A DNA stretch of 64,000 bases. It comes from Lama glama (lineage: Eukaryota). The notes below the pieces were generated by a model. It was not told the DNA's origin. It saw nothing but the letters and a program-made list of their open reading frames with translations, and searched no databases. Position numbers and translations under genes: made by a program. This document shows positions 5,291 through 61,814 of this stretch, piece by piece; positions within the stretch are counted from its first letter, which is position 1, and each line of letters starts with the position of its first letter. The stretch covers positions 64,048,001 to 64,112,000 of the forward strand of contig CM052816.1 of NCBI GenBank assembly GCA_028534125.1. Reading direction: 5' to 3'.

Positions 5291-8200
5291 CTAGCTGCTC
5301 TCCGTAGGTGACCAGGAGGAAACAGAAGCCAACTGGGCAGGCTCGGAAAATGAGCTGTTTTTGTGTTTAGACCTTAAGAAGCTGGAATCCTTTTCATTCC
5401 TCCTCTGCACAGTTGAGTGTTCTGAAGGAGAGCCAATTATCTGGAGAATGTGCAATTGGCACTACGAATAAAAAAGGACATGTACGTACAGCTGAGTCTA
5501 GAGTCGATGAAACCAGTTTATCTGAATCTGATTCCGGGGCAGTTCGATGCTGAAAGGTGGTGTTATGACTCACTGAAGCTTTCACATCTATTGTTTTTCT
5601 TTTCCTGGGTGGCTTTGCCAAGGACCTCACAGATACCATTATTTTCAGATTACTGTTATTACACACATTCTTCTTGAATAAAATACTACTTTGTTTTTTA
5701 TCTCCATAGAGCGAGGACCAGGTTTCAGTTGTTTTCTTATCTGTATATGTAAGACAATCGGAACACTGCCCTGCTGGGCTTATTCTCCAGTCTCGCGGGT
5801 GTGGTAGAAAGCAGGCAGAATCCCAGGGAGGCTTGCTGAGGCCCAGGGAGAGAGGAGGAGCTGTGGGGAAGCTCTCCATTCTCCTTGGGCCCTTCCTGGA
5901 GAGCCATGCACTCCTCAACATCGGTGGACCACCTGCTATGACCTGCTATGACTCGGGGCTTCCGTTCCCGAGGAGGGAAACATAAATAAATGAAGAAACA
6001 CATAAACTGGAAAATAACGGTAGGGATAGGTGCTAGGAGAGGTTTTCAAGCCAATGAGGCAGGAGAGAAAGACCAGGAGGAGCTGACGGGTAGCAACAGG
6101 AGGGAGAGCTGGGGGCAGAGCCAGCCAGGTGCCCTTTGGAGGGGACAAATTTAGCATATTCAAGGAACTGAAAGCACGTAAATACGGCTACAGCCAAAAT
6201 GAGATCAATGCATAAAAGTAATACAGAGAATTCTGAGAAGACTCAGAGGTTTCGTCTCAGATGGGAAGGAAAAGAAACTAAAGCCACAGGCTGACAGTGG
6301 TTGCCTCACAACCAATGGACGGGGTGCTACCTAGTTCCCTGCGGACACTCCAGAAACTGGGCTTAAACTGCATCATGAGCAAACAAAGTCTGATATGAAG
6401 GAAAGGAGTTTCTGCAATTTAGCAGGAATGAGTGATTGACAAGTAACACCACCCAGAAACTGACAGATTGTCAAGCCTGCCTGCTAGCCCTGGGTTATTT
6501 CAGCCTGGAATCTCTGGCCCAGAAAGAGCAGTCATTGCTTTTCCCCTCGACGGATTTCTCCATAGAGAGTTCAGAACAGGAGAAAACGAGAGATTAGCAC
6601 GCTTTCTGAAAGCCATGAAACGAGGGAGTTCTGTGTGCTGTGCCGGCACTGGGCTCTGTCTGCATCTCCACAGCAGCTCCTGTTGTGTGTATCTACCAAG
6701 CTGACTGAGCCTCACTGGTGGGTGGCACTTTAACAAGTGGACTGCAGACTAAATTCAAAGAATTGTCGGTGGCAAATGATACTTTATTCAATATGTGTAC
6801 TTGTTCTGCTGACTCAGGTTCTGGTCTTTAAAATGGACCGTTCCTTGAGGTGGAGTCAAGGAAGACGCTTGCCTGATTTGCTCTGGCCTGGCACCTGGGC
6901 TTGTCTAGAACAGCTGTTCCACCTGGGCTTCCGCAGGTGGGATTTACTTTTAACCTACTGCAGAGAAGTGTACACTGTCCTGTGCCTGGGCAGACGCCTA
7001 GAAGACCTCTACTGCGGGGGGGGGGGGGTGGCGTGGCCCAACACTGGAATTATTAGACAAGGCCAGTCTCTAAGACTGCCCTCTGTTCTGTGGCAAAAGG
7101 GACACAGAATATAGCCCCTTGCTAAGCCTGAGTGCACTTCCAAATGTTCCTCATGAAGAATGAGTGTATCTCAGTTTTTTTGGAGGGACCCATCTGCTCA
7201 AACGTTTCTGAGTCTCTACTCCTAAGCTGTGTCCTTAAGCCCTAAGACACAGATGCCCCAGATACAGATGCTCCCAGGAGCCCCTGGATGCAGGTCCAAG
7301 GAGCGCCTGGCACACAGATGCCTCGGGGTTTCCTTCGGGCCGCGCCGTCTCACGTCCACCCTCACACTGCACTCACTAGCCTCCTTGGTCCCTGATGCCC
7401 TTCTTATTCACCTGACTCTCCCTTCTCTCCCCTGGTACAACCTTGGTAACTCGACGCCGGTTCTGGGTTCCTCTGCCCTGGGCATCAGTGGCTAAGTTCC
7501 TGGGTATTACTGCTGGGACTTGCTCTGGCCTCTGAAATATGCCACCTCAGCCAGCGCAACTCCCAGACCCTGCCAGCCTGCTCTGTCCAGAGAGAAGTCA
7601 AGACATTAAGACCATTCAGTGTCTGTCCATGAATTCCACACTCTGGTCCCATACAGTACAAGTCAGTCTTCCCCTAATCCCCAGAAACGTCCTCAGACAG
7701 GTTCGGCTCCCGTGTGCCAGCAGCTCAGAACATCGTGACCAGGTATGTTTACCTGACTGCTCCTGCCCCTCGGCCTTCTCTGGCCAAGGTCTGATGGCGC
7801 AGAAGCCCAGGACAAGGCCACAGGGATGCCAGCGTGCAGAACCTCTCCTCATAGTCCCTGTCTGGCTTTAAGGGCAGAGGCACCCCACCTAGTGGTCTGC
7901 CCTCCTCTCACCACTCTCTCTCTCACAGTTTTGGGGCTGGTCTCTGGTTCCTCTCACCTCCTTCTCCAGCCATGTTATCCACGACTGTATTCGGGATTTC
8001 TGGGGCAGCTTCACTGTGGTTTGGTAGAGGGACGATGAAAGATCGTTTTCCACCTTATTGTCTTGAGAAAGCATGAACCTACCAGGTTTAGGGGCCCGGA
8101 CAGACAGTTACTCTAAACAGATAGCGTCCCCGCGCTGACCCATTTCTCTTGTGGGCCGATCAGACGCTGCCTCCTCCACTTCGCCAAGGCACACGGGCTG

Positions 8201-9024
8201 CTGCTCCTGGGGTTCTTTTCTAGGGCTGAAGTGGCAGTGCTTCTGATTTGGCCCCTGCATGTTATTTGTTTATCTTGACATACAGGTTTGTCCCAGAGGG
8301 AAATGCTTAAAAAGTGGCGTGGCATCCCGGATATAGAAAGAAATGCAGCTTTAACTTATGTCAGCCCCTCTCCTGCCAGACTCCTCCCAATTATTCTGCA
8401 GGCTTCTTTGCCCCGAGGGCAGTTTGCGGCTCCAGGGGACTGGAATTGGCTTAAAAAAATTTCTTTCCTCTCTGTGCCCCATGTGAGGAAGCATTGTGTG
8501 CTCTCTAAATAATAAGACTGGCTTTGTGTGACCTAACTGGACAGGCCCTTTGAGAGATTTTTCAGTTGCAGAAAGAGCAGTCAGCTGCACCCTAGGAAAC
8601 CAAGAAGTTTCCAGACCAAGGAGAAAAGTCCATGACAGCAAGATTTTTTTTTGCTCTTAAATTACATTGTGTGTGAACTAATTCCTCTCTCCCACTAGCA
8701 TTTAAGGTAACTAGGTAAAAGTGCAGCAGAAGAATCCAAATTTATATTTTGGATCTGATAAATAATAGCATTTAATAAGATGTTCCCCACCCACCCAATG
8801 CTAACAAAGTAACAATCAATCAACAAATCATTTGAGAGCCCTTATTATATGCAAAGTATTGCCATCGATCAAGATAATTATTTATTACATTTATTGATTT
8901 CCTACTTGGGACTCAGCACTAACTAGAAGCTAAGGCATTAGAAAGAGGCAGAAGTCATAGTGTTTGGCCTCCAGCTTACAACCTCCCACTTAGAAGAGAA
9001 CATGGACGAGAATTAACCACCTCC

Positions 9025-13714: not shown

Positions 13715-14283
13715 AAGAGTGGCCTTTAAACTATCAGTTCACCTGAAAACTTGTTAAAGATGCAGATTCCTGGACCCCATCCCTGACACTCTGAAACAGC
13801 CCTGGAATCTGCTTTTTCAAAAGGCTTATCAGATCATTTTTGTGCTCACTGAAACATGAGGACCTATTCTAGACTCCTGGTACTCAAAGGTGGCCTTGAG
13901 ACCAGCAACATGAGCATCACCTGGGAGCTTGTTAGAAATGCAGAATCTCAGGCCCCATCTCAGATCTTCTAAACCAGAATCTGCATTCTAACAAGATCTC
14001 CAGATAATTCCTTAAAGTTTGCAAAACATTTTGCTAGGATAGTTTTGTCTTGTAAATTAGTTCTCACCAGCTGGGAAGAGATAACACAGCAATGCAAAAG
14101 GGGGCTTCTTCTCAATCCTAAACTACATACTAGAATCACTAAGGAGCTTTTTACCAATTCTGACATCTCGGCCCTACTACCGGCCAGTTTAATCCAGCCT
14201 TCTGGAAGTGGGGCATCTGCAATTTTTAGACCTCCATGGCTAATTCCAACATGCAGCCAGAATTGAGAACCACTGCTCCACTG
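13715..14283. mobile_element. Cluster of three adjacent MER5A/B MITEs
   Basis: Repeated MER5 cores (tgcagattcctggacccc; cacctgggagcttgttagaaatgcagaatctcaggcccc; attgagaaccactg). Confidence 0.75.
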
Positions 14284-16510: not shown

Positions 16511-17044
16511 CAATAGGAGTTGTAAAAGAAGAATCACAGAGCCCCAGTCCTTGCTTCCAGGCCACCAAGAATAGGAAGGTTGGCTTGAGTCACAGAATTG
16601 ACCCACACCCTCCTAAGAGGGAGCTGGGACCTGCCAGGAACATCTTGCCCTCAGCACCTTGCTGGTCCCATGGAGGTAGGCCTTTCCCTGAAATCCAGCC
16701 GGTAGTTAGCCCCCAGCTCTCTCGACCCTTCCTCAGAGAGATCTGGGCCCCCAGTACAGGTCCTTGCCCAGGAAACTGAAGGCACGAACAGAGGCTGACT
16801 GCCTCAGGCAGCTCCGTGGGCCAGCAAGGATGCGGCAATGATGCAGCATGTACTCCAGGTTTGGTCTCTGTTGGACGCCTGTGGGTTTGTTCTCCAGAGA
16901 TAGGTTTCTCTTCTCGCCAAAAAAACACCCTTTGACTCACCTGCCCTAGGTTAAGACTCACTAGTGACCGAAGGTGGCTGCCACTATCTGCCAAGTGCTG
17001 ACAGCCCCACCAGCCGTTTGGCTGCAGTCTCCCTCCATTGTCCC

Positions 17045-18130
17045 GGGCCAGCCTTGGGCACGCCTTAAATTCCCCCTAGGAGGCAGAAATGCCAGCTAAC
17101 AGTGTGAGTGGCAGCGAGCCACCCCCGCGAGGCCGTCCAGCCTGGGCAGGGCAACGCGCATTGCTGGGAAGCCATTTGCATCCAGTTACTGGTTCCCGGA
17201 GAGTGGGGGCCAGGGTTCGTCGAGCCAGAATCGGGGCGTCTGCCCCCTGCGCAGGCGTCCTGGGTCACAGGCCACTTCATTCTCTCCTTGGGAACCCCGG
17301 GAGCCTCTATCCTACCCGGACTTCCGCCCGGGGTCTCTGGGCGAGATTGTCCCGGGACGCGAGTTCTCTTCCCTCCTGGAGCCCCCAGCTTCCCCAGCTT
17401 CCCCAGCTGATCGGAAAAGGCGCGCTCCGCCGAAGCCTGGGCTGCGCAGGCTCTGCCTCCTCTGCGGGCAGCGCCAAGGGAAGCGAGGGCATTCCCGCGC
17501 CTGCCGGGGCCGGTCCCGGTCTCCTTCTCCCCCTCCCCGGCGCCCGACACCAGGGGCTTCCTCGCACCTCCCCTGCCCTTAGCCAACAGAGTGTCTCAGA
17601 TTCCGCTGCCTCCTCGGGGTGGGACTCCAGCGCGCCAGAGCCCGTGAAGCCGGGGCGTTGCGGGGTGAGGGGGCGCTGGAGGCGCCGCGGGGCCCAGATC
17701 GCTTTGTCGGGTGGCCTCTGCTTTTCCTCTGCCCCCACTGCAGGCCTGAGGTCTCTGAGGGGCACTCATGACCACCGCGGGGGAAAGCAGGGAAGAGGAA
17801 GGGGCTCCTAGGCCTGGACCGCGCGTTCAAGGCACATGGCGCTGCTGGGCGCTCAGAGAAACAGACCCAGGCTTGCCGGACGGAGAAAGAGGTGGAGACC
17901 CCGCAGTCCGGCCACGTCAGAGCTGCGGAGCTCACCAAAGGCCAGAACTAATTTACTAAAAGAGCAAAATTTAAGAGGGGGAATTTGACACAGTAATAGC
18001 GACAGCATCTGGAGGGAAACCGCAAGGGGAAAAAAAAAGTTGTGAATCAGGCTTTTGCGCAGGGACTCAGATTTTGCAATAGGCGCTTAATTAAACATAA
18101 AATGTATCGATACGGTAGGCAAGTCGCGTT
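17045..18130. promoter_or_regulatory. CpG island (apparently orphan; candidate poised enhancer or lncRNA promoter)
   Basis: Abrupt GC- and CpG-rich segment in CpG-depleted surroundings. Overlapping ORFs are low-complexity G/P/R/A with no recognisable domain. Confidence 0.85.
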
Positions 18131-18180
18131 CCTGAGAAGGTAAAAATACAGTGGACTCCCCCACACCCCAGATGCTCCAC

Positions 18181-18357
18181 CTGCCTGCTGTAATTACAGG
18201 GCTTCAGAGAGGAGGGGAAAGAACACGACAAGAGCGAAATCTGCTTGCATATTTTTCTTCTATTGTGCCGGGCTCATTTGAATTATAATGTGTTGCCGGC
18301 CCGAGTAGAAAATTTTGTGCCTTGAATAATGAATCCCCCTGGAGCCCGCGGTACCTG
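18181..18357. promoter_or_regulatory. Putative enhancer / duplicated non-coding element, copy A
   Basis: Four collinear blocks shared with 29280-29445; motifs TAATTA, TGCATATT, ATTGT, CTCATTTGAAT, TGAATAATGA. Confidence 0.65.
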
Positions 18358-19089
18358 TACTTCTCTTCAGTGTCCTCTGAGAATAACGTGTTCAACATTC
18401 AAGTGACAACACTGGAAAGGATTTCAAAGCCCCGGAGCCCCAGAAGGCTGTACACCCTGATGGCTCTTCTGCCTGCCCTCTCTTTGGCTTCCAAATGCAG
18501 CAAGCTCTTTCTTTACTTAAAATATGTTCATCTTCCACACAGGTCCTGGCTGTACCACAGAAATACAGTCCAGATAAGTAGGCTCTTACTTCTAAATCTG
18601 AGCTAGCTCTACCAGCACAAAGGTACCAAGCTGCTCAGGTCCCAGGGTACTACCTAGATTTTTTTTTTTAATGGAAAAACTGGGTACCAGAGAGGCGCAA
18701 CGTCTTGTCACAAGCCAAAACAGGCTTTTCTGGTATTGATATTATTTGACTGGCTCAGGGTAGCTTTCCATAAGAAAAGAGAGTAAACGTTCAGTAATTT
18801 AGTAATACAGACACGGTTTAAGTCACACACAGTATCTAAACCTTTGGGAGGCTCCATAGTTCTGAACAGCTATTTGATAGGGGTTTGAAGTTAAGGGGCA
18901 GAAGGAAAACAATCTGAAAATCTCAGTAAGATGAGAGAATAAAAGCTTTACAAAATGAAAGAAGCAAGCGGTCTTTCATGCCTAAACTTCCAGTTTTGTT
19001 TTGTTTTTGTTTTTAGTTGAGCATTCTTTCTGGCTTGAAACAGATTCAGAAGCCTTTTTAAAAAACAAGTCACTTTTGGCCAGATATAT

Positions 19090-19400
19090 TAAGGTATATG
19101 CATATGATACCATGGAACCAATAAAAAAAAAAGGTTCTTAGCAGATATGGAGGGATTTCCAAGATACATTACTGAGTAAAAAGCAAATATACTACTGCTT
19201 GAATAGGATGAAAAGATCAAAGGAAAGTGTATATGCAGATTTGTTTACATAGCCATAGAATATCTTTGGACAGATACTGCTTTTGGGGATGGGATGGGAA
19301 GACAGGAAGAGGGGACTGTGCCCTCTTTATCTAAATCCTTTGTCAGTTTGTTTTTAAACAATGTAAATGAATTGCTTGTTTAAAAAATAAACAAAATGTA
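19090..19400 (+). mobile_element. Old L1ME 3'UTR fragment
   Basis: gatatggagggatttccaagatacattactgagtaaaaagcaa is a typical L1ME 3'UTR motif. Confidence 0.55.
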
Positions 19401-20251
19401 ATAAATATTACAGTCATTCAAGCTGTCATACAGCCTGGTCAGGGTGTGGGGATGAAGGGGGGACAGCATGGTTAATTGTTAATTTCCACTAGTTTAAATT
19501 AATTGTAGCCATTACTTCCTCATTTTTTCATCCAGGCTGTTAATAACTTGCCAAATGAAGCTGATACAGAGTTTTCTTCTCTGTCTGCTCCTTCTCTCTA
19601 ACCGAGGCACAGACAGACAGGCAAGGAAAAAACCTGAAAATGGGGTAGAGGAAGGAAGTGAATACAAAAGCAAAGACCAGGTTTAATCAGTAAGTTAACA
19701 AAGGATAGCTGACTACAGTCGTTTACTTTCTGAGCCGGGACATTCCCTTTGTGTCCTGAGAACTATTTCAGGACTTTGTGAGTTCCTACTTATTAACATT
19801 CTAAGAGCTTTGAGCTGAAAAGCAGAGAACCCCAAGGCCTGGGAAAGGCAAGAACTCTGCCAGACCTTTGGGTCTGGCTGAACCATCTTGAAATAGCTCT
19901 TTAAAGTCTGCTGTACCACTTCCAGCAGCTGCAAAGAGCAGGGAAACACAGAGGGTCATCCCGTGGTCTGAGACATTACTCCAAAGAGCTCTCAATCCTG
20001 CTTCTCAAATGCTTGACCCTGCAGTCCAACCGATTTCCAAGAGGCAGAGAGTGAGCCCAAGAGCCCAGTTGGGCCCCCAAAGAGGGCCATCCTCCCCAAA
20101 GACAGAAGTGGAAGCTTCCTCTGTGATAAGTTCTTCCTACACAAACAAAAAAAGCAAACCAAACAAAAACACACAAAAATCCTTTTTTTTTTTTTTTAAC
20201 CTGCTCTCTGATTCCCTTTCACAGAGCCCAAACCTCCTTCTCTCCACTTAG

Positions 20252-20390
20252 AGCAGAGTTTTTCAACCTTGGCACTATTGACATTTTGTACCAGATAATT
20301 CTTTGTTATTGGAGGGCTGTACTGTGCATTGCAGGATGTTAAGCAGCAATCCTCTGTCTGCTAAGTGCCAGCAGCACCCCTCCCCAGGTC
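20252..20390 (-). mobile_element. MER20 hAT MITE
   Basis: ttttcaaccttggcactattgacatttt...gataattctttgtt...gggctgtactgtgcattgcaggatgttaagcagca is the reverse complement of the MER20 3' half. Confidence 0.85.
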
Positions 20391-20460
20391 GGGATATACA
20401 CATATATACAACAAATGTATATATTTGTTAGAAGTCAGAGATAAGGTGACATTAAGATGC

Positions 20461-20972
20461 TGTGCTAGATGCTTCCTGTTTACCCCTCCAGACCCACTCT
20501 CTGCCCTTCTCCACCCTGCTCTGTGCCTCAGGAGCTTGACTCTTACAGGCTGCGCTGACGGGCTTCATCATCATGCTGTCTCTGTGTTCTGGGTGGGGCT
20601 GGCTATTGGGAGGAACTAGCCAGTGGGGGTGTGGGAGGAGTGTGAGACAGGTTACTCTGGATCCCCCTTAACCAGATTATGGTTGGCTGATATAGCTTCC
20701 CTCTTCCACAGGGCACAGCTTCTGTCAGGAGGCTGTCTGCAAGAACCGTCTCTCTCTCTCTGGCAGGCAGTAAACGCTCTCTCCTCTTGGACTTCAGGCC
20801 TAAGAGCAGTGACCATTTTCTGCTGTTGTTAGCTCCAGGATACTGTACTATTCCTCACTGGTTTCCCTAAGCTTTCCCTGCCTATGCTTTTGAGTCACCC
20901 CTTTATTAAAAATCTCCTTAAATTACTCAGTCTGAGTATGCCATCTGTCTCCCGCTGGACCCTGATGGATAC
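20461..20972 (+). mobile_element. LTR33-like ERVL solo LTR
   Basis: cccctccagacccactctctgcccttctccaccctgctctgtgcc at the start; ccctttattaaa...gccatctgtctcc...ggaccctga at the end. Confidence 0.7.
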
Positions 20973-22584
20973 GAATGATATGGGAAACCATTTGATGGAG
21001 GAGTTGTTAGTCTGAGACAGGATTTAGGAATTCTTGAATTCCTTGACCAAACACCCAATACATTGAAGTGCCTTGAACCAAAGTGATTGTGGTGCCCTTT
21101 CTCTGTGTATTTCTGCCCCAATAACCAAACCCAGGGCTGAGATCTCCCACTTGCAGCATGAGAAAGCATTTGTCCCAATACCAAGAGTAGAGGTTATCCA
21201 GGCCATATCTGGCCTTCTCAAAACAGACATGATTGAAGACTAAAAAATTTTTAAAAAGCATGAGAAAAGAGATAGCAAGATCTTTCCCCAAGAGAGCAAG
21301 CTCTGTCCCCTTTATCACTTAAGCCACACAAAAGAGAGAGGAAAACATTGGCATGTTAATCCCTTTGTAAGTGCATTATCTGGAAAATGAGGGCAAATGA
21401 GCATCTTCCAATTTAACGCAAAAGTTTCTCCATAGACGTAGAAAGTCTTCATCCTAATTCTAATGTATACAGCAGAATAAGTAAAATACGTAGGCTGCGT
21501 GGGAGAAGGGGGGTCCTCTTCCCTGGCCCCTGGGCTATCTGGGTTGGACAGGGGGAGGCTGTCCCAGGCCTCAGCTGCCAGGAGGTGGGAAGGAACAGAG
21601 CTCCTGTATGGCTCTGACCCGCAAATGCCCAACGATAAGGAGGGCAAGTGTGGCAAGGATGAGCCCAGGGAGCCAGCCCTGCATCTGGCAGTGGTGCCTC
21701 TGGGCCATACCAGGACAACAACCTCGATTGTCCCTCCCAACAGTAGCCCTGCTGATCTCAGAGAAAAGAAAGCCATGGGGCCATTTGGACCAGGCCTCTG
21801 CAGAAAGAATGCTGCCCTTTCTTTGCAGCTTCGGGTCCCAGAGTCATGGAATCAACAGCTCAGAAGCTGGCAGCCCCCTCGGAGGCCTGGGCAGCCTCCC
21901 CCATGATCACATGGCCCAAGACACTCTGTTCTTTGTGACAGCAGCTTGGCTGGATGGGCTGAGGACCTCCGCAGACAAAGATGCTTCAGGTGCCCCCCTG
22001 AACCCCTCGGATATTGATGAAAGAGCCTCTCTCCTCTCATCTGTGCCCCCAGCATGCCCAGCTCACCTGGTCTCTGGGCACCCCCATGACCTGATGCTTG
22101 ACTGTTATTCACAGTAGACACAGCCCCTCCCTCAGCCAATGCCAGAGGCAGCACTGGACTCAGGGAGCAGAAGGGCAGACAGACACCTTCAGGGCGTTTG
22201 CCTCATGCAGCTAACGTCAGAGATGTTTTATTACACAAGATTTGAGGTCATGTTGCTTCTTAGATAAAAGGAACTTTGCTTCAAAGAAATTTACTTGCTA
22301 AACAATGCTAGGAAAATTGCCAGGCTATCACTAGGCACAGCCAGCCACTTTTGAGTTGCCCAGTGTTTCCAGAACTGCCAAGTAAATTGCTCACATTAGA
22401 TCAGAGCTCCAGAGAGTGGATCACAGAACCCTGTGGGCCCTCAGTTTCTCCCTCTGTAAGAACACAGAGGCTGGACTGAATGAACCTCTAAGATATTTCC
22501 AGCTCTACACTCCATTCATACTTAGGAACAGCCTGTCTCTTGGCACCTGCCAAGGCCAAGTTAGTCAAGAAGGAAAAGGAGGCA

Positions 22585-22820
22585 GCACAACTCTGGAGCT
22601 AGACTGCCCAGGTTCGAATCCCAACTCTATAGCTTACCGTCCGTGTAACACTGGGTGAGCTATTTCATCTCTCTCTGCCTCAGCTTCCTCATTTGAGAAG
22701 TAGGGGCAACTTCAGTACTTGCTTCACAGGGTTGTCATGAGGCTTAAACAAAGTAACACCTGCAATGTGTTTAGAACACATCTAGCACAGGGTAGGCACA
22801 CCGTAAGCATTTGCTATTTT
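22585..22820 (+). mobile_element. MIR SINE
   Basis: ctctggagctagactgcccaggttcgaatccca...ctctctgcctcagcttcctcat...cagggttgtcatgagg. Confidence 0.8.
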
Positions 22821-24454
22821 CATTGCTCTCTTTACTTTTACAGAATGCCGTCTGAGTCTTTTCCTGTCACAGTTAAGCCTTGCTAAAAGCAATTTGGCAA
22901 ATGGGCTCTCACAGGGCAGAGACTGGTTATTTTTCTGGGGGAACTGAAAATAATGCCAACTTTATTCCCTTCTCAGCTAGCATTCTCCTGGGCTGGGAAG
23001 GAGGTTTGGTGAGGGGGCTGCAGTGATTTACAGAATTTGGCAGGATGCCATTTCTTCCAGATTGGAGAAAAAAGTGAAGCCCAGAGAAAGGCCCAATCAG
23101 GAGCCTCCACGCAGGTCATGGAGAGCGCCAAGGCTCTGTCTGACCCTGAGCCTGCAGCAGGCTCCTTCACCCACCACCCACCTCTGCCTTCTACCAAGAG
23201 CCTCCATTTCCTGCCAGGGCTCAGGCCTGCACTCAGGGCCCTCCCTGCACAGCTGGTGGCTGGGCCATGCCAATGAGCCCTCGTATACCACTTCCACAGG
23301 CCTGGAGCCACAGCCGAGGGGGCTAAAGCGCTGGGCAGTAACTGCCGCTGAATGGAGGCTGAGGAGTCATGGCCCCTTGGACCAGGAGCACAACCACAGG
23401 TGGAGGGCTGATCTGGGGCCCCCGTGGTTAGTTCCCAGGCAGCACAGGGTAGGAATGGACCATGACCTTGGGTCCCAGCCCGTGCAGGGCCTAGGAGGCT
23501 CCATCTACACAGCCCATTAACAAGTAGGCATTGGACAAGGCTCTAGGTATATCCACTTTTACCGCTACAGATCCCCCCACCCTTCCTGAGCCTGCTCTGC
23601 CATTGGAGAAGGTACCACTGGCTTCCCTTGCCCTCTGGATTCTGGTTGGGTTTGGCAGTAGAAGGTAGTACCATGAGAACTGAGGGCAAAACTCAAGTGA
23701 GGTCAGGACATTCAGTTCCCTGGCCCCCACTCCCAGTCCATCCAAGATCCCTTTTCCTAAAGCCATAAGTTCCATCAGAAAGGCCTCTCCACGGGCTCAG
23801 TTCCCTCCTCTTGACCCCGTCAGGCCTAGGAGTGAGTGAGGCCTCTTCCTGCTTCCAGCCCCTGTTGTTTTCCCTGAACCTTGCCCACAGCTTTGTCGAT
23901 AGGCCCTAAGTCCCCTAACTGCCTGGCATGGGCATGCCCTGTGTCCTGAAGGACCTTGATACAGGCCCAGTGTTGGCCCAAAGGCTCATCACCTCATCAT
24001 CAGCTTCCTCTTCTTTTTCTTTCCGCATGTTTGTACCACAAAAGAATACCTATGGCATGCATGCAAGATATGAAGTCATGACTCAACTTAAAAATATAAT
24101 AGTATCAATGCTTTTGAAACTTTCTGTGTGTTTCACAGCCACATTTCTATCCCGGACATGTACGTACACACACACGCATGCATGCACAAGCACAAAGTTC
24201 ACTACAGCAAAAGGCAAGGGAAAACCAGGCACCTCCTTTTTGCACTTGTCAGCTCAGGGTTCACATCCTAGCTGGCACATCTGACCCAACAGACCATGTA
24301 CTGGCAATGCCATGGGGTGGGACAGCCACACAAAATTAGACCCTCAATGGGTAGAACCCAGGGGACAGGGAACACTGGAGTAATTCTCCTAGTCCTGTCT
24401 GCTTCCTAATGGGGGACAAGGACAAAATGCCACACACCCAGGACTTTGGGGTAG

Positions 24455-24900
24455 CTCTCCTTCCTTCCTGCTGTGATAATCATTACTGTACGCAGCCCAG
24501 CAATTTGGCGCCTCAGCAGCCAGACTCCTGGTAGGTGCCTGGGCCTGACCATTATGGGGGATATTATGATCATGATTACAGGATGGCTGAGCCGTCCAGC
24601 AAAGTGACCGGTAATTTGCAATCTAATGGCCATTCAGTGGTGGGTAATATTATGGACCTTACCCTGCAATTGTAAAACAACCGGCCCTCTCTAATGCAGC
24701 AGTTTTCCCATCTAAAGCCCGGCCTTTGCTTTTGATTTCTGCTAATCAGTAGCTGTGCCAGCTTTGGCTTTAGCTTTGGAGAAGCTAAACAAGGGAGCGT
24801 GAAATGATACACTCCTCTTAGGACTGAGAAGTTTAGGCAGCTCTGTCAAGTGGAGAAAACAACAAGTGAAAGAAGCATCTGGAAGGCAATTTCATTTCTT
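24455..24900. promoter_or_regulatory. Candidate conserved enhancer, rich in homeodomain cores
   Basis: Repeat-free; about eleven TAAT/ATTA cores in 24470-24750 and several retained CpGs. Confidence 0.45.
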
Positions 24901-27339
24901 AAAAGAGTAACAGAAAACGGCCCGAAAGCTTTGCAGAATGTAGCAAGTGTTGCCTGGGAATCCAGGAAACCGGCACGGCCAGGTGCGCACACAGGTCCCG
25001 TTGGGTGCACACCCACAGCCCAAACCCATTTCTGATACACACACTCACATACACGGACACACAGGAAAATAGGCACAGACTCGCAGAATAGGCATTGAGG
25101 GTCTCTTCTGCAGGCTGCCCACAATTCTGCTAGTGAGCACAGCCTACTTCCATCTGCCTTGATGGCAGTAGGCATTGTCAGGAGAGAAGACAGTCAGATT
25201 AGAGGTTCAGGTCCCACTTGTATCACAGTCCACTGAGACACCTCAGTTTCATGCATGTGGACCCGCAGCAACACTCAATGTTGAACAGATAAGGGCTCTT
25301 TCTAACCCGCCCCCATAAATCTTGGATCAGTCCCACCACAGTCTGGGGCCAGCTGAGTCTACAGGTGTGGAATTCCTGGTTTCAGCTGCCAGTCAAAGAG
25401 CTGAGAGGCACAGAGCCAGGCAGCCCATTATAAAAACCCACCCCAGGGCTTCTGGAACACAAATGTCCAGGCCAGTTGGGCACTTCCCCTTCCCTCCAGG
25501 GGCCTCCCCTCAGCCTCCTCGTCAGCCAGGTCCCACAGCTGCCAAGCAGAGAGGCTGACTCCAAAAGGGGAACAGTGCTCCATGGAGCCCCTCTCAGAAC
25601 GCTATATCCCTGAACAGCTGGGGCTTTGGGGCACTTGTCCCCTGTGAAACTGCTCATTCCAGAGCGATGGAAATGCACACTGAAAGCCATCATCTCTCAG
25701 ACCCTCTACCTGTCATATTGGGATGGCAAGAAAGTTGAGCTGCACGGTTTCAGATGGAAATCAGTGTCTCTGACTCGGTGTAAATGGCTTCTGAGTTCTT
25801 AGGCTGTTTGTGACTAGTTCTCATCCAATGGGACAGGCAGGCCAGAGAACACCAGCGTTGACTTCACTACCCTTCAGAGATACACAGGACACCCAGAGTA
25901 GAAAAGTGCATCAGAAAGCACATCTCTCAGCTTCACAGCGAGGAAACGGAGATCTAGAGAAATGAGAGGTGCTCACAGCACCACACAGTCAGCAACTGAG
26001 ACTGCTGTTTCTTTCCTCAGCTGTGACAGAAGGTTGGGGGCGAGGGGGTGTCCAGAACAGGTGGCTAATGCTTCCAAATTAATAGTGCTACTTCACAGGG
26101 CCCTCTGGGGATAAAAACGTTAGGTGTAAAGCAGCTTCATCATAAACCAAGAGCAACAGTGTTGGTGCATCATGCTGTGCAGCGGCCACCGAGAGCTGAT
26201 GCAAGTGCCGGTCACATCTCCTAACCTGAGAAAGAGGAAAGGAGTCGTTTGCCGTGGGCGTGGAGTCAGAGCTGCCTGAGAGCCACGTCAGCAGGTGGTG
26301 TGAGCTCAGAGCTGCTGAAGGACATTTGAGTCTGCAGCAGCCACACCTCCCCCAGGAAGAGGCTCTGGGTGCAGCCAGGGCCCCAGAGTTGACCCCACTC
26401 TGTCATTTGGCTGCCCTGAGAGGACCCTCGGGCCATGGCCATGCTCACACCCACAGAGGGCTAGACCAGCTCCTCAGAGGCCTGGGAAGCAACAGTCCAC
26501 TTAGCCCCCAAGTGGGTGACAGCCCCCAGTGTAACCTCCCACCTCCTGATCCGTGAGAGTGGGTGAGATCTGGGCATCTGAGTATCTATTATCCAGCATG
26601 GTGGCACAGGACATCATGGGAGAAGGGGAAGGAATGTCCCACAAAATGAAGAGTTTACCCCTCGGTGAAGCCCACCATTCTCACCTTCTCCCTGACTCCC
26701 TGGAGGAGCTGACACAGAGGCCAGCATGGTTTGTAGACTATTCTGAATCCTGAGCTTTTAGAACTGGAGAGGTTCTCAAAGAAGACACCAGTAATTCCCA
26801 GTGCAGAACTCAAGGGCAGGAAACCTAAGTGTTAGGGACAAAATAAAAAATTTGGGTTTTCAAGCCCAGCCTCCAGGGAGTCTTATTCAGAAGGCCCAGA
26901 AATCTCCATGTTTAAGAAGCTCTCAGGGTGATTTCCCAACCACTGCAGTGAGCCAGTCCTCCCCCTACAAAAGAAGAACCTGTGGTCCAGAGGCCCGTGT
27001 CACTCAGCATGGCTGAGGTGACAGGCCACAGATGCAAGTGCCTCCAGTGGGGTTGAATGTGAGCTCTGCAGCCCACTTCCTGGGAGACCATAGCGAGCCT
27101 CCTAAACCCTCTGGCCCAGTAATTCCACTGCTAGAAATTCTCAAGAGGCCACAGGTTCCTGGAAGCATGGTTTGTAATAGTAAAAGACTAGGGCCAACAT
27201 AATTTTCCATCAAGAGACTAATTGTATGAATTATGGCACATTCATGCTGTGGAACACTATGAAGATTCCAAAAGAAAAACAGTAAAACGGCAGCTCTGTG
27301 TGTGCTGCTGTAAGAAGTGAAAAAAGCAAGGTATAATCC

Positions 27340-28040
27340 AAGACTAGCATCTTTACCTCCATTCCCTCCTGCCCCTTCAGTGGCCTCTTTCTTCTCCATC
27401 AACCCTCACGTCCAACGGAAGGACCTTAGTTTGGTAGATTCCATCTCATCAATGTGTCTAAATTCATGCACTTCCATCTGTGCTAAACCATCTCCCTGTG
27501 GATCCCCATAGCATCTTCCCAACCCAGCCTCCATGATGCATCCTTACATGCAGATCTGACCCCTCCACTCCCTCCACCCTTAATTCCCTTCGGTGCTCAC
27601 CACTGCCAACTCCTCAGTAGGGCCTATAAAGTCATTCCTGATCCCTGCTTCCCTCTCCAGCCCCATCTGTTGCAACTTTCCATTCTTCCACCATGAATTT
27701 TTAAGTCTTAAAATGCATCACATTTTCTCTTACTTCCATATCTGCTACACTCTTCCGCCCTGCTCCCCATCCTCCTTATTTAGCTAAGGTGTCACCTCCT
27801 CACAACTTTTCCTTGATCCCCTACACCAAGTCCAAGTGCTCCAGGTAACGGTATCCCCTTGCCTCTCCCATCATAGCATGTTTCTGGCCACACTGTCATT
27901 GCATGGTTCCTTCTCCACACAATTCAGTGCAACTTGAGCTCTGGGAGAGAAGAAACTGGATCTGTGTCACACCTAGATCCTTAGGGCCCAGAACTACCAT
28001 GATGCAGATACTTAGTAAGTATCTGTCTTGTGAATAAATA
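27340..28040 (+). mobile_element. L2 3' remnant
   Basis: Pyrimidine-rich L2-type sequence ending cttagtaagtatctgtcttgtgaataaat. Confidence 0.55.
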
Positions 28041-28499
28041 ATAGTACTCACTATAATGTATTAAAACTTATCTGAGCTAATGAATGGTAAACTTGGTGTG
28101 ACAGGGACTGAGTATAGAAAGACAAATTAGCGTCTGAAATCGAGGGAAATTTTTTTAGGGCCAATTAAGTATAGGAAGGTTGTACTTTCAACCATCCCAA
28201 GTTCTAGTCAGTATTGGAGAGACACAGAAAATCACTCAATAGCAACTCAGAGCCATGTAATGGGTCAGAGGAAATGGTATCAGCACAGAGGTCAAAGAAC
28301 TCCATTAATAATCTAATTCTCCTTCAGAAAAACACAGACCACTGTGAAAGTTGATTCATTTTTTCAAGCTATGAAGAGCGTACCCTAAGAAAAATATTAT
28401 TTGGAAAAGAACACTAAATAACCTATGTATCATTTATTAGTCTTGAAGATCAGTGTTTCTCTAAACATATTTAGATTCCACGCAAGACTATGAGAATCC

Positions 28500-28700
28500 T
28501 TTTTTTTAACCTTTTTTCTTCTTTTTCTTCAGTTGTATTGAGATCTATTTGACATATAACCCTGTATTAGTATAAGGTGTACAACATAATAACTTGATAC
28601 AAGTATATATTGCAAAATGATTATCAATATCCATTAGTTAATATCCATCACTTCACATGGTTATTATTTTTTTGTGTGATGATGATTCTTTTTCTTTAGC
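28500..28700 (-). mobile_element. L1 3'-end fragment
   Basis: T-rich tail then ttgagatctatttgacatataac...aaggtgtacaacat...ttgcaaaatgatt. Confidence 0.7.
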
Positions 28701-29279
28701 ACACTTAAACACAATTTGCAGAAGTGTATTTAGTTGAGCATTTATTTGTTGAATATTTGACTCTGCCACTAGCCTTTAAGCTATGGTAAGGGTGAGAATA
28801 ATGAGTGTTTTGTAACCTCAGAACCCAGCATGGTGTTCTAGCACTTAGTAGGTGTTCATTAAATATTTGTTGTCTGAATGAATGCATACATGAGTGCATG
28901 CATATGTGGGAAAACACACACAAAACACAGCCCAGGAGTTCCCTCATCCTTGGAAAAATACTGAGCATTAGACAGGAGAAAGTCATCATGAAACCACTCT
29001 GATGAAAGACAAGAAGAATGAAGGGCAGAGATGAGCCAAGGTCACAAATGAGTCAGTTTTTTTTTTTTTTAATGGAGAGACAACCAAAAATATGGAGCCA
29101 AGAGGAGAGATGCTATGATAGACCACTGACTGATAAATTCGGAGCTTGCTACACCACTGAGCTGTGAATAAAATCCTGCTTACCTAAACAGCTAGCAAGT
29201 TTATGCATTGTTTGTGTTTTGCTTAGATGAGAACACCACGGCTGTCCCGTCAGACTCCATGTTCAACTGTCCCAATCAA

Positions 29280-29445
29280 CTGCCGGTTGTAATTAGGGAG
29301 TGCTGGGGAAGGCCGTTGGAGAGAAATCAGCGTGCATATTTTGTCTTTCGTTGTGCCTGGCTCATTTGAATGATAATGTATTGCTGTCTGGGGTGTAACA
29401 CAGACTGCGTTGAATAATGAGGCAGCTCTGGACTCCTGGTACCTG
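29280..29445. promoter_or_regulatory. Putative enhancer / duplicated non-coding element, copy B
   Basis: Paralogue of 18181-18357; 53/62 identities in the core by manual alignment. Confidence 0.65.
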
Positions 29446-32034: not shown

Positions 32035-32625
32035 TACAGGCATTATCTTAACTGTGTGATCAAATTTAACATACCAATAATGGGACAAACTGACATCATG
32101 GGCTACCTCATATGATAGGTAGGACTCAGAAGGACAGAACACCACTTGGTGACACTCCTGCTGAAACAGTCATAACCTGACTTGAATAGTGAGGAAATAC
32201 AAGACAAACCCAAACTAAGGGAAATCCACAAAACAACAAGGCTCTACTCTTCAGAAATGTCAATATCATGAAAAATAAATAGCTAGACTAAGGAATTATT
32301 CTAGATTAACGGAGATTAAAGAAGACTGTATGATAGATTGTAGTACTGAATCAATGTTAAATTTCACAAATTTGATTATTATATTATAGTCTTATAAGAG
32401 AATGTTTTTGTCCTTAGGAGATACATGTTGAAGTAGTTGGGGAGCAAAGTCTGCAACTTACTATCAAATGGTTTACCACACGGTAATAAAAATGTGTATA
32501 TGCATGTGTGAGGACATATACAAAGAAAGATAAAACAAAAATGGCAAAATAGTAACCACCTGAAGGATAAATGGGTGTTTGCGGCATTACTCTTGCAATT
32601 TCTCTGTAGGTTCAAAATTTTCAGA
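32035..32625 (+). mobile_element. L1MC-type 3' fragment
   Basis: gacaaacccaaactaaggga...tcttcagaaatgtcaatatcatgaaa...actgaatcaatgttaaattt...cttgcaatttctctgtagg. Confidence 0.7.
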
Positions 32626-32699
32626 ACTTTCAGACCAAGTTGCCCAAGGGGAGGGCACCAGCCGGGGCAAGGGGCATAATGAGTCTGCTTACCCAATAA

Positions 32700-33960: not shown

Positions 33961-34924
33961 TCTAAGATGATGCCATGGTAGCCACATAGTCATTTACATG
34001 AAAGTGTGTGGGTGGTGCCGATATACGGCTTCAGGGCAGGGAGGGCCCTAGAGCAGCCAGGCAGGGCCCCTTCCCTCTCCGCTCCCCCTTCTCCCATGAC
34101 CCCACCCCTGTCCAACACTTCACCTACATTTCCTTCAAGCCACACTCAGGAAAGTGACCAAGCACACCTCCCTGACACACACCCTCCATGCATTCCCTGT
34201 GTTACTTCTTTTGCTTGCTAACCCATCTTGAAGGTCTGCCTCTCCCCACAACAATTCTGAATGTCAAATCCAGGGAGGAGGGAAGAGGGAATGGGAACTG
34301 ATATGGACACATCACCAGAGGCATCGGCACCCCGCCGCATGGCAGGTGGTAAGCAGGCAAGAAGGAGGGTCATGTGTGCACACAGCCAGGGACACTGGAA
34401 CGAGTGAGTCCCTGGGCAGAGCCAGGGACAGGCCACTGTGTATGATTAGTCAAGTTATGCAACAATATTCTAACCTAATTTTGTATTGTTACTCTCATTT
34501 TGCTTGCTTGATTTTTCTTGCAGAAATGGCACTGTGCACTGAAGCTACAAGGATGAGTGGAGGGCTCAAATCTTTCAACCCAGGTCCCTGACATCCTTAA
34601 AATATGCTGGTGCCCTCCCCTTGGGCAACTTGGTCTGATATTCTGATCTGCTCTGTTATGTTCAGTAGGGGCCAAAGGGCTTCTGAAAACAAGCCCTTCA
34701 TTCAAGAAAATAATACAAACAACAGGGATTCCAAGCAGTAGTGCCAGCCCACAACGGAGCCATTCCTCATCAGAGTTCTTTCACACTTCAGAGGCAGGAG
34801 CCAGCTCTGCTCCTTCTAAAGATGGCCCCTGGGTTAGAAAGATTGGACAAAGCTGTGAGATTCTCAAAGACTTCTCAATGATAATGAACCCTTTCCTATC
34901 TGAGATGGAGCAGGAAGCATGAGC

Positions 34925-36177: not shown

Positions 36178-38039
36178 GTATCGGAAGCAAAACTACTCTG
36201 CATCCTGATACAGTGTTTCCACCCTTGTTTCCACACAACCCTGCCATATGAACCATTCCTTTAAAATCCAGACCCTCAAAAGGGGCCAAAGACTCTGGCC
36301 GTGAGCCTCCTGTTTGCTGTGCCTCCAGACTCTGATGTAGACCGATGTACCACAGCCTTTTAGACCCACATCCAAGGAACATCCAAGCACAGCCTGAATT
36401 GCTATCATGCCACTTTTGGTGAAGCTGCTAGCTCCACCCACATTAATTAACAGATATTCTCTAAGGTCTTACGTTTGTCATTAAACAGATCATCAGTCTG
36501 AAGAATAACACTCAGTACATTTCTCAAGCAATCACTCTAAGCTAGAGCTCTCATTCTCACTTGTCCTTTGTATCAACAAAAACTTATTTTCCCTTTCAGG
36601 ATCCTGGTAAAGGAAGGCAAGAGAAGATGTCAAACAAGCCATTTGCTATGGCAGGTTCAGGGAGGTCAGAAAAGTTCCCTGAGGGAAGGAGGATTCAGTC
36701 TGAAGGCAAAGGGTGAGCTGAGATCCAGTGGGTGAAGAAGAGCAGTTGAGAGAAGGGTCTTGTGGAAGGGGAGGGGGCTCTACCGGGGCCTCGCCCAAAT
36801 CCCCAAGCCCACCCCAGACAGCACCTGCAGGCCAGCCAGGTACACAGTGGTTTCCAGGTCCTCGCCTGAGGGCACTGTCTGGCAATTGCAGAATTAACAG
36901 GTGAGAGGTGGAAGCAGCCTGGACTAAGGTGGTGGCAGGGATGCAGAGAAACGGAGAGGTCCAGATATCTCTACAGGAAGAATGGACAGAACTTCATGAT
37001 GCATATTGAAAAGGGAGATGAAGACGTAGGGGTGGATGGGTGATGACGAACCACATACTCACATGAACTCAACTCCAGGAATACTTCTCTCTTCCTTTCA
37101 AATAGTTCTCTCTGCCTTCTCACCCAGAGCCATCCTGATTGCCATGCCTGGTCAATCCAGACATGAGACAGTGACAGACAAATGCCCAGGAGTCATGGAC
37201 CTCCCAATCACAGAGCCACATGCAGATGCCACCCTTGGGTCTGACCAAGAACCAAGGGCTGGAACGGTTCTGAGACTGTCCAGGCAGCCTAGGGCACCAA
37301 TACACTTCTGTAAGAAGAGTAGGGTCCGAAGGGCTTAAAAAAGCTCCTTTCAGAATTTTCTTTTTCTTTTATTGCCTTCCCATAGAGGATTATAGATAGC
37401 TGAAGTTTGTGAGTTGGATTACTTCCATCTATAAAATAAAGACTATAAAGTCTTTTCACCCTAATCAGAAAAAGTATCCTTTTGTCCCACTGTATTCATC
37501 AATATGTCATATTTAACTGCTACAATTATTGACAGGTATATAAAATGTTTGGTGACAGCGAAAATAGCTTCCTATAAAGTGTTTATTCTTTTTTATTGAT
37601 AATAAGTTGGCTTCCCTGGCCCTACCAAGAGAATACAGACCACTAACAAGAGATCAAATCCATTTATATGGCTTTCTACAATCATCGTTTTTACTCTGGG
37701 GCTCTGTTCTAGGCCCTGTCTTTTAAATTTCAGCATCCGAGGGAGCTTGGAGCCCTAAAGCAGGATCATATTACTTCTGTAATGAGGAAAGTATAATTCT
37801 AATAGCATCATTTACTACACCCTTTCATTTTTCTTCTTCAAGACAGACTGTACTCCTGTGTGCCTGTGACTTGAATCTTTAAAAGAGAAAAATTTCAACT
37901 GTAAAGAAATATTAATCAAAGGAACTGTCTGCAGGCAATGCCAGGTGGGCACCATGCACCACAATAATACTGTATTAATAATAACTATAAATATAATTGC
38001 TACTTGGATTTAATGACTACTGTGTACCAGGCATTTCAG

Positions 38040-41040: not shown

Positions 41041-41899
41041 CTGCTACACTCTGTCCATGTAAATCTAAGAGAATGCTGCACTCGGACTGCTTCTAAAGAC
41101 TCTGAAGTTAGAACCGTGGACGAGGCACTGTGAGAATGGTCTACGTGAGAGAGACGAGAGGAATCCGGAGTCAGCAGAGCTCGCACCTGAAAACAAGGCT
41201 GTGGCCCTAATTGAAAGGATGTGGAATTAATGTGCGTGGCTATGTTTTAAGTAAAAATGCGTTTAAGTCAGTATCAGTAATCAGAAAAGGCGGTGGAAGC
41301 AGCTAAATCAGGATGCCCAGGTCACGCGGTCCCTTTCCAGCTGGTGAGCCTCGGGATTCTCTCTGTTGGGAAGAAAACCTCGCAGGAGGGAAAATACAAC
41401 TCACGAATACTGGTGGCTACCTTTTGGGTTTGCAGCCAGCACCTCCTTGCCATCTGCCCAGTGACAGCACTCCAGTTTCTTTGTGGGAAAACCATTCTGC
41501 CCTTGCTCTCAGCCTGGGACCTTCTAGAGGCAGAACACCCCACTCAGGATGGGCAATCTACACAGACCACCTACCCAGCTACCACAATTGCATCAAGGGT
41601 GGTACAAGGCTCAAGTCTGGGCAATTGGGACTAGTAAGACTCTGCTTTCCAGGATTTTAAGTTATCAGGGAACTGACCTCTCTCCTCCCCTGGCTTGGGT
41701 ATGGTCATGATGTGAGCCTGAAGGCAGCCAGAAAAATTGGAGGATAGAGCCAACCTATAGGAGACAGAGACAAGGGCTGAGTTCAGAGGAAGGTGTGGAC
41801 ATCACTTCAACCCTGCATCAAGCCAGTCTTGAAGCCAGACTTTCATTATATGAGCAAATATATTTCTTTTTTACCTTAAGACCATTTGATTTGGGAGTC

Positions 41900-42380: not shown

Positions 42381-42741
42381 CTGGGTTCTCTATTACTTGC
42401 AAAAGAGAAACACTCACTGATATTTTAAGGGGCTCAGCACCATGCTTGGAACATAGTAGGCCCTCGAAAATCAGTCACCATCAATACTAGTTTCATCGCT
42501 ACTGACCAGCAATGAGCATTATGAAGATCCAACTTGTGCTACAATTACAAGTATTATCTTTGCAACCAAGAATTCTTAAGTAGATTAGGTAAAGAAAGTG
42601 ATGTCTCAAAAGAAGTCCCTCAGTGCCAACCAGAGCTGTGGGTTCAGGGACTCTACCCTCTGCTGGGCCCTCCGTACGGCAGAGGGTATCTGAATCCCTG
42701 AGCCAGCCTCAGTGCAAATGGTCCCTTCAAGAGTTGCTTGT

Positions 42742-42824
42742 CTCTAGGTCCATCCATGTTGCTACAAATGGCATTATTTCATTCTTTTTTATGGCTGAGT
42801 AATATTTCATTGTGTGTGTATGTA

Positions 42825-42867
<43 letters not shown>

Positions 42868-60691: not shown

Positions 60692-60723
60692 GTATATACC
60701 ATATCTTTATCTGTTCATCTGTT

Positions 60724-61571: not shown

Positions 61572-61814
61572 TTATCCGTTCATCTGTTGATGGACACTTA
61601 GGTTGCTTATGTATCTTGGCAGTTGTAAATAATGCTGCTATAAAGATTGGGGTGCATGTATCTTTTTGAATTAATTTTTTGTTTTTTTCAGATATATGCC
61701 CAGGAGTGGAATTGCTGGGTCACATGGTAGTTCTATTTTTAGTTTTTTGAGAAACCTCCATACTGTTTTTCACAGTGGCTGTGCCCAAAAAATGGCCAGT
61801 TGTGATTGATATCC

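What the first reader, a model, noticed from the sequence alone, without database searches (positions are those of the whole stretch)
18181..29445. Paralogous pair of ~170-bp non-coding elements 11.1 kb apart with conserved motif grammar (candidate duplicated/shadow enhancer)
Seen: 18181-18357 and 29280-29445 share four collinear blocks in the same orientation. (1) ctgcctgctgtaatta / ctgccggttgtaatta, 14/16. (2) Core gaaatc.gc.tgcatatttt..tctt...ttgtgcc.ggctcatttgaat.ataatgt.ttgc at 18236-18296 vs 29323-29384, 53/62 by hand with one 1-bp gap. (3) tgccttgaataatga / tgcgttgaataatga, 14/15, exactly 21 bp after the core in both copies. (4) ctgga...ggtacctg. The spacers are largely unalignable and I see no similarity in the flanks. 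Established: TAATTA is a homeodomain core; ATTTGAAT, TGCATAT and TGAATAAT resemble POU-class sites; ATTGT (copy A only) is a SOX core. Inference: conserved blocks with scrambled spacers and one fixed spacing indicate an old duplication under purifying selection on binding-site grammar, not a recent segmental copy. The pair may be a tandem shadow-enhancer system for a nearby neural/developmental gene. Copy A abuts a CpG island and copy B does not.
Basis: partly seen in the sequence, partly recalled or inferred. Interest (0 to 1): 0.8.

Follow-up and report, generated by a model that had tools for sequence, protein, structure and literature searches.

The report
Ancient twin conserved non-coding elements
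Two related 170-base non-coding stretches lie 11 kb apart in a gene-free region and each has its own slowly changing counterparts in other genomes, so they are likely twin gene-control switches (enhancers) born from a very old local duplication, although their activity and target gene are untested.

Summary
In detail: the two copies align at blastn E 3e-13, with a 53/62 core, a 102-bp gap-free diagonal, no third copy in the window and unrelated flanks. They are not coding, not a known RNA and not the Lmx1b LARM pair. No genome alignment was available, so I read each copy through in one open frame and searched machine-called ORFs from public contigs. Of 23 distinct hits, 7 carry copy A's flanks, 12 carry copy B's, 3 form a distant group about equally far from both, and 1 is chance. 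In B the core is far better kept between genomes (0.82-0.86 amino-acid identity) than its flank (0.53), which indicates purifying selection. Best reading: an old tandem duplication of a conserved enhancer-like element whose copies diverged and then froze. Enhancer activity, shared target, redundancy, bound factors and the species of the hits are untested. New member of a known kind.

The parts
17041..18030 (.). CpG island next to copy A, with no coding exon found nearby (apparently an orphan island)
   Evidence: 66% G+C, CpG o/e 0.66, 70 CpG; no Pfam hit above cut-off in 425 ORFs of the window
18097..18398 (.). larger conserved element that contains copy A
   Evidence: A-type ORFs align at 84% over 18097-18231 and 76-89% over 18222-18398; weaker alignment reaches 17912-18848
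18181..18357 (+). copy A of the duplicated element
   Evidence: 7 A-type counterparts
18181..18196 (+). block 1 of A, holds TAATTA (homeodomain core; label recalled)
   Evidence: 14/16 to B
18236..18296 (+). core of A; holds the first TTGAATNAT site (18278-18286) and the SOX-like ATTGT
   Evidence: 53/62 to B; 0.87-0.89 amino-acid identity among A-type rows; site position
18297..18317 (+). 21-bp spacer of A: copy-specific, conserved within A
   Evidence: 8/21 to B; 0.79-0.85 among A-type rows, 0.07-0.08 A vs B
18318..18332 (+). block 3 of A; second TTGAATNAT site (18322-18330), 44 bp after the first
   Evidence: 14/15 to B; 1.0 among A-type rows; spacing
18350..18357 (+). block 4 of A (GGTACCTG)
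   Evidence: 8/8 to B; block plus spacer 0.92-0.95 among A-type rows
29280..29445 (+). copy B of the duplicated element, no CpG island but CpG-rich for its surroundings
   Evidence: 12 B-type counterparts; 7 CpG in 200 bp, top 1.7% of windows outside the island
29280..29295 (+). block 1 of B, holds TAATTA
29323..29384 (+). core of B; first TTGAATNAT site 29366-29374; four neighbouring codons of the read-through frame (29344-29358) differ here from most other B-type rows
   Evidence: 0.82-0.86 among B-type rows, 0.91 in the tightest 12 codons
29385..29405 (+). 21-bp spacer of B: copy-specific, conserved within B
   Evidence: 0.69-0.80 among B-type rows
29406..29420 (+). block 3 of B; second TTGAATNAT site 29410-29418, 44 bp after the first
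   Evidence: 0.75-0.79 among B-type rows
29438..29445 (+). block 4 of B (GGTACCTG), weakly kept together with its spacer
   Evidence: block plus spacer 0.51-0.53 among B-type rows; the two codons on the block itself kept in 9 and 8 of 11 rows

Best explanation
The two stretches are homologous non-coding copies, each conserved with its own flanks in other genomes, that likely arose by a very old local duplication and likely act as enhancers read by homeodomain-type transcription factors at sites held at a fixed distance. Shown: homology, non-coding nature, separate counterparts of A and B, a slower core than flank in B, and fixed differences between the copies. Inferred: one ancestral element (resembling the distant group) was copied 11 kb away; the unconstrained rest of the duplicated segment decayed; each copy took its own substitutions, also in the spacer, and was then held nearly still. 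The letters kept in all three groups (CTCATTTGAAT and GAATAATGA, always the same distance apart) would be the binding sites; POU-class or PBX-type factors are recalled candidates. Because the differences are fixed, the copies more likely drive related but non-identical patterns than fully redundant ones. A, beside an orphan CpG island, would be the larger and more constrained partner.
For: Homology and isolation. Non-coding: mismatches fall 13/10/9 on the three codon positions and 16-18 of 33-34 codons change residue in every frame; no Pfam hit above cut-off in 425 ORFs. Counterparts: 6 of 7 candidates, 3 of 5, 17 of 1350 and 17 at E<=0.001 of 1.84 billion; 23 distinct ORFs sort by flank into 7 A, 12 B, 3 distant, 1 unrelated. 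Constraint: among 7 B rows core 0.86, spacer 0.80, flank 0.53 (0.44 with one frameshifted row); by simulation 0.53 is about 25% and 0.86 about 7% nucleotide change. Fixed differences: His 11/11 vs Asn 6/6 and Ile 11/11 vs Thr 6/6 at two core columns. Age: within A 0.90, within B 0.73, A vs B 0.45, distant vs A 0.52, distant vs B 0.47; three clean groups in the tree, supports 99/97 (B), 99/96 (distant), 82/90 (A). TTGAATNAT occurs 7 times in the window, 4 of them in the two copies, 44 bp apart in each.
Against: No chromatin, reporter or expression data. Conservation is seen only through one translated frame of unnamed ORFs, which must be stop-free and machine-called, so the sample is small and biased; several rows are close kin (for example five B rows share one sub-pattern), so independent lineages are fewer than rows. 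The species are unknown, so 'other mammals' and the age are inferences. A's whole neighbourhood is well kept (flank 0.82-0.86), so the core does not stand out in A, and the A rows may simply be closer relatives. The distant group changes one letter in the second site and the ATAAT half of the first in 2 of 3 rows, so the tidy repeated 9-mer is not strictly ancient. The tree tool warns that long branches meet between B and the distant group. Synteny of A and B in the other genomes (that they lie 11 kb apart there) was not seen.
Confidence: 0.65

Rival explanations
1. The copies are two separately inserted and separately tamed members of a low-copy ancient transposon family (UCON, Eulor or MER121 type; names recalled), not a local duplication.
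For: Similarity is confined to about 170-200 bp with unrelated flanks; exapted ancient repeats cluster near developmental genes (recalled); independent exaptation explains at least 31% of human redundant enhancer pairs (PMC7093719, abstract passage). No Dfam search was possible.
Against: All 22 homologous ORFs fall into three flank-defined groups; none has the core with unrelated flanks. No third copy in 64 kb. No hairpin, terminal repeat or stable fold. The search is weak for core-only copies, which would score near the cut-off.
Confidence: 0.15
2. The pair is a true shadow-enhancer set: both copies drive the same gene in largely the same cells and buffer each other. This is a narrower form of the best explanation.
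For: Shared sites and spacing; 11 kb apart in one gene-free stretch; body homology is found in 31.9% of mouse shadow sets (PMC13345019).
Against: Both copies stayed constrained and carry fixed, copy-specific differences in core and spacer, which fits divided or new roles better than interchangeable ones; only A has the island and the larger conserved frame.
Confidence: 0.3
3. The family has three members per genome: the distant group is a third paralogue elsewhere in mammalian genomes (for example from the vertebrate genome doublings), which would make this a classical duplicated CNE family with one extra tandem copy.
For: The three distant ORFs are about equally far from A and B and differ among themselves (0.79) about as much as B rows do (0.73); species are not given.
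Against: They follow A's flanks on both sides (32% over 131 codons, 18144-18509, E 1.5e-14), as an orthologue of A from a distant lineage would.
Confidence: 0.15
4. The copies act as RNA or protein: duplicated exons, a structured RNA, or splice-regulating elements of a long transcript.
For: One minus-strand frame is stop-free across the diagonal in both copies.
Against: No codon periodicity, 18 of 33 codons non-synonymous in that frame and a frameshifting gap; many counterparts shift frame beside the core; no Rfam hit; folding z-scores -0.3 to +1.4 on all four strands.
Confidence: 0.05
5. A neutral old duplication, with the blocks as chance survivors.
For: Clumping of matches between the two copies alone is only borderline (p 0.02-0.16).
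Against: Core about three to four times slower than flank among B rows; no gap in 102 bp despite 32 differences; five columns invariant in all 20 rows of three groups; CpG retained at B.
Confidence: 0.04

Closest known systems
Duplicated conserved non-coding elements, dCNEs (McEwen et al. 2006; paper not held; seen only as described in passages of PMC1896008)
   Same: Short non-coding element present in more than one copy, each copy conserved across species, found by sensitive BLAST.
   Different: As described there, dCNEs sit beside paralogous developmental genes and date from the vertebrate genome doublings, with conservation to fish. Here both copies lie 11 kb apart in one gene-free stretch, and conservation to fish was not testable.
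Duplication-born shadow enhancers of mouse (Ness, Kosztyo and Wunderlich 2026 preprint, PMC13345019; parts 1-3 of 8 read; its supplement was listed but not read)
   Same: Enhancer-body homology well past their fly-set cut-off of E<=1e-4; no flank homology, like 31.5% of their mouse pairs.
   Different: Their sets are defined by chromatin, expression and contact data, which are missing here; they read BLAST hits as recent-to-intermediate duplications, whereas this one appears older than the split of the genomes sampled.
Apolipoprotein E hepatic control regions HCR-1/HCR-2 (Allan et al. 1995; seen only as a reference title in PMC7093719; details recalled)
   Same: Two enhancers of one locus made by local duplication, some 10 kb apart (recalled).
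   Different: A recent primate duplication with long, highly similar sequence and duplicated genes (recalled); here only a 170-bp core is left.
Lmx1b LARM1/LARM2 (Haro et al. 2021, PMC8452625; parts 1-3 of 6 and supplements 1 and 4 read)
   Same: Two conserved homeodomain-site modules a few kb apart in a gene-free stretch, with divided rather than redundant roles: a model for how this pair could work.
   Different: Not this locus: two wild-type LARM2 site primers have no real match in the window, and the parts read do not describe the LARMs as paralogues.

Membership tests
duplicated CNE (dCNE) | more than one copy in the genome by sensitive BLAST | tested here: met
   E 3.2e-13 within the window
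duplicated CNE (dCNE) | non-coding | tested here: met
duplicated CNE (dCNE) | each copy conserved across species | tested here: met
   7 A-type and 12 B-type counterparts, core slower than flank in B; seen through translation only, species unnamed
duplicated CNE (dCNE) | conserved between mammals and fish | not testable with these tools
   no vertebrate genomes held; the distant group is of unknown species
duplicated CNE (dCNE) | copies lie beside different paralogous developmental genes | tested here: not met
   both copies lie in one 64-kb stretch without a detected gene; a tandem pair, unless the distant group is a third paralogue
shadow enhancers | each element has enhancer activity | not testable with these tools
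   no chromatin or reporter data
shadow enhancers | same target gene and overlapping expression pattern | not testable with these tools
   target not identified
shadow enhancers | duplication signature: enhancer-body homology | tested here: met
shadow enhancers | duplication signature: flank homology | tested here: not met
ancient exapted repeat (UCON/Eulor/MER121 type) | many dispersed copies with unrelated flanks | tested here: inconclusive
   0 of 22 homologous ORFs have unrelated flanks, but the search is weak for core-only copies
ancient exapted repeat (UCON/Eulor/MER121 type) | match to a Dfam or Repbase consensus | not testable with these tools
   no such library on hand
ancient exapted repeat (UCON/Eulor/MER121 type) | terminal inverted repeats or a strong hairpin | tested here: not met
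structured non-coding RNA | Rfam match or a fold more stable than shuffles | tested here: not met
   (copy A region at E-value level; B at gathering level only)
duplicated coding exon | shared frame with excess of synonymous change | tested here: not met
Lmx1b LARM1/LARM2 | published binding-site sequences present | tested here: not met
   2 of the 6 wild-type site primers tested, neither matches

The most novel reading that the evidence does not exclude
An undescribed tandem pair of paralogous developmental enhancers as old as the split between mammals and birds or reptiles, in which one copy kept an orphan CpG island and the other did not, both froze with different spacers around the same two homeodomain-type sites, and camelids later lost the SOX site of copy B: a natural experiment on how fixed spacing, copy-specific letters and a CpG island each change what an enhancer does.
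Probability: 0.25. Interest if true: 0.65.

Novelty: new member of a known kind. Interest (0 to 1): 0.45.

Why it matters
Most ancient duplicated conserved elements described so far sit beside paralogous genes; a very old pair side by side at one locus lets one ask directly whether duplicated enhancers stay redundant or divide their work. The three-way comparison narrows the likely functional letters to two short sites at a fixed distance and gives a short list of fixed copy-specific differences to swap in reporter assays. With a CpG island beside only one copy, the pair could also test what such an island adds. Without activity data it remains one more conserved non-coding pair among thousands of conserved elements.

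Tried and rejected
Own genome: none held. Rfam: only a mir-544 hit far away at 13911-14008 and two chance-level hits near A. RNA folding: nothing. Genes: 425 of 425 stop-free frames of 58 aa or more scanned against Pfam, 4 weak hits, all below cut-off; shorter exons would be missed. Exact-pattern scans of metagenome contigs: 0 hits and 1 chance bacterial hit, L001. Sequencing runs: for copy B with the library word ATAC none was listed; that is no evidence either way, and without run ids no reads could be laid, so chromatin and transcription stay open. Lmx1b LARM idea rejected. Papers: exact motifs gave 0 papers and 17 papers whose listed titles are unrelated (15 listed); topic searches showed no description of this pair in their listings; subscription papers, figures and most supplements were not searched, so the pair may well be listed in CONDOR, VISTA, ENCODE or the McEwen tables. 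Earlier findings: no look-alike stretch and nothing near. P0040 was dropped as a repetitive chance hit. In one search rows P0032 and P0034 were left out because they change frame inside the core, and frameshifted parts of P0030 and P0033 were skipped; one search left out P0030, P0032, P0033 and P0034. The locus could not be confirmed by sequence.
Full report
Observation. Block 1 is 14/16, the core 53/62 with one 1-bp gap, block 3 14/15 and the last eight letters 8/8. Self-blastn of the window gives 76.5% over 102 bp at E 3.2e-13. Copy A scores 148 against B, whereas 838 other tiles give mean 36.8, sd 6.3, maximum 59. A profile of both copies finds no third copy in the window, the 1-kb flanks are no more alike than random stretches, and nothing else lies on the 11.1-kb diagonal except one pair that I read by eye as MIR-like. 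New detail: the alignment is gap-free for 102 bp (70/102), so two spacings are fixed, and each copy holds TTGAATNAT twice, 44 bp apart; 4 of the window's 7 such sites are in the two copies. From the two copies alone, the clumping of matches is only borderline (p 0.02 to 0.16).

Setting. The window is CpG-depleted vertebrate DNA with one clear CpG island at 17041-18030, about 150 bp before copy A. No gene was found: 425 stop-free frames of 58 aa or more gave 4 weak Pfam hits, all under the cut-off. Earlier, unchecked notes on this genome call it a camelid and place SLC22A4 42.5 Mb before the window and CAPSL and SPEF2 15.1 and 15.2 Mb beyond it. With human and cattle coordinates that I recall, and if gene order is kept, this points to the counterpart of human 5q11-q13, best guess the gene-poor stretch near ZSWIM6-KIF2A. 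A human genomic regulatory block holding ZSWIM6 and C5orf64 is listed in PMC6906185 (table passage). This placement is unverified by sequence and nothing below depends on it.

What it is not. Not coding: mismatches spread 13/10/9 over codon positions and 16-18 of 33-34 codons change in every frame. Not a known or stably folded RNA. Not the Lmx1b LARM pair.

Cross-species test. No vertebrate genome is held, pattern scans of metagenome contigs gave only a chance hit and no sequencing run was listed. However, one minus-strand frame is stop-free in both copies, and the protein collection contains machine-called ORFs from public contigs, so I used that frame as a lens. Copy B found 6 of 7 candidates, copy A 3 of 5, a joint profile 17 of 1350, and a full HMMER scan 17 at E<=0.001 of 1.84 billion. 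Mapped back to the window, the 23 distinct ORFs are 7 with A's flanks, 12 with B's flanks, 3 distant ones and 1 repetitive chance hit. None has the core with unrelated flanks. The sources give no species; that A and B rows come from other placental mammals is inferred from their flank divergence.

Constraint. Among 7 B rows the pairwise identity is 0.86 in the core, 0.80 in the 21-bp spacer, 0.75 in block 3, 0.51 in block 4 with its spacer and 0.53 in the next 20 codons of flank (0.44 with one frameshifted row); simulation equates 0.53 with about 25% and 0.86 with about 7% nucleotide change. With 11 rows the figures are 0.82, 0.71, 0.79 and 0.53. A rows are 0.79-1.0 throughout, flank included, so A lies in a larger conserved element, at least 18097-18398; the A rows may also be closer kin. 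The sample is small, biased to open frames and includes close relatives.

The spacer is conserved within each copy but only 0.07-0.08 identical between them, so it is copy-specific rather than free. Two core columns are fixed differently (His 11/11 vs Asn 6/6; Ile 11/11 vs Thr 6/6). Thr-Met in 8 of 10 other B rows implies CATTGT on the plus strand if the Thr codon is as here, so the SOX-like site is likely ancestral in both copies and eroded in this genome's B. At one column both copies of this genome read Gly while 10 of 10 other B rows read Ala and 5 of 5 other A rows read Ser, so some of the 53/62 identity arose in this lineage, by chance or a tiny gene conversion.

Age. Over 35 codons identity is 0.90 within A, 0.73 within B, 0.79 within the distant group, 0.45 between A and B, 0.52 distant to A and 0.47 distant to B; the tree gives three groups (supports 99/97, 99/96, 82/90, with a long-branch warning). 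The distant group follows A's flanks on both sides, yet sides with B at 4 columns and with A at 6, and shares half of the spacer with each. So A and B parted about as long ago as either did from the distant group. If that group is from non-placental vertebrates (inferred from its distance; a third paralogue is not excluded), the duplication is far older than the placental radiation. Five columns are invariant in all 20 rows; they correspond to GAATAATGA and part of CTCATTTGAAT.

How it most likely works. Shown: homology, non-coding state, separate conserved counterparts, fixed spacing, fixed differences. Inferred: a local duplication of an enhancer-like element, decay of the rest of the duplicated segment, early divergence and later stasis. 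The invariant A/T-rich sites at a fixed distance fit cooperative binding by homeodomain-type factors; POU-class and PBX-type assignments are recalled resemblances, and no motif library could be run. I put 0.65 on the whole account and about 0.3 on strict shadow-type redundancy, since long-kept copy-specific letters suggest divided roles, as in the LARM pair (PMC8452625).

Comparison and novelty. Duplicated conserved elements are a known class (124 families, beside paralogous genes, as described in PMC1896008), and duplication signatures occur in 33.9% of mouse shadow sets (PMC13345019). This pair differs in being both tandem and apparently very old. Ten paper searches showed no description of it, but the McEwen paper was not held and element databases could not be consulted. 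Verdict: a real, constrained, old tandem pair; new member of a known kind; interest 0.45.

Noticed in passing
window 24450-24850: Single-copy stretch between the two copies, rich in homeodomain cores (7 TAAT/ATTA in 170 bp at 51% G+C) and not similar to anything else in the window; a candidate third conserved element.
   Followed up: partly
window 29344-29358: Four neighbouring codons of copy B's read-through frame differ in this genome from most other B rows, including the SOX-like site; possible camelid-specific erosion.
   Followed up: partly
window 13911-14008: Rfam mir-544 hit above the gathering score (76.9 bits); likely a MER5A-type transposon hairpin rather than a real microRNA (recalled).
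   Followed up: no
window 8200-8600, 37400-37620, 41150-41330: Further stretches that look like conserved non-coding elements by eye; single-copy in the window.
   Followed up: partly
window 32621-32662 and 34606-34646: A 42-bp inverted pair, 95% identical, 2 kb apart; unexplained.
   Followed up: no
window 59732-61781, 47334-48294, 42741-43201: L1 3'-end fragments: two tandem copies 88% identical at 59.7-61.6 kb, one in the other orientation at 47-48 kb, and a patchwork of pieces in both orientations at 42.7-43.2 kb (L1 label recalled).
   Followed up: no
window 5394-5945 (-): 183-aa stop-free frame without Pfam hit; possibly a decayed retrocopy.
   Followed up: no
P0003-P0039: The protein collection holds machine-called ORFs from vertebrate non-coding DNA; translating a non-coding element in an open frame can recover its counterparts when no genome is held.
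   Followed up: yes
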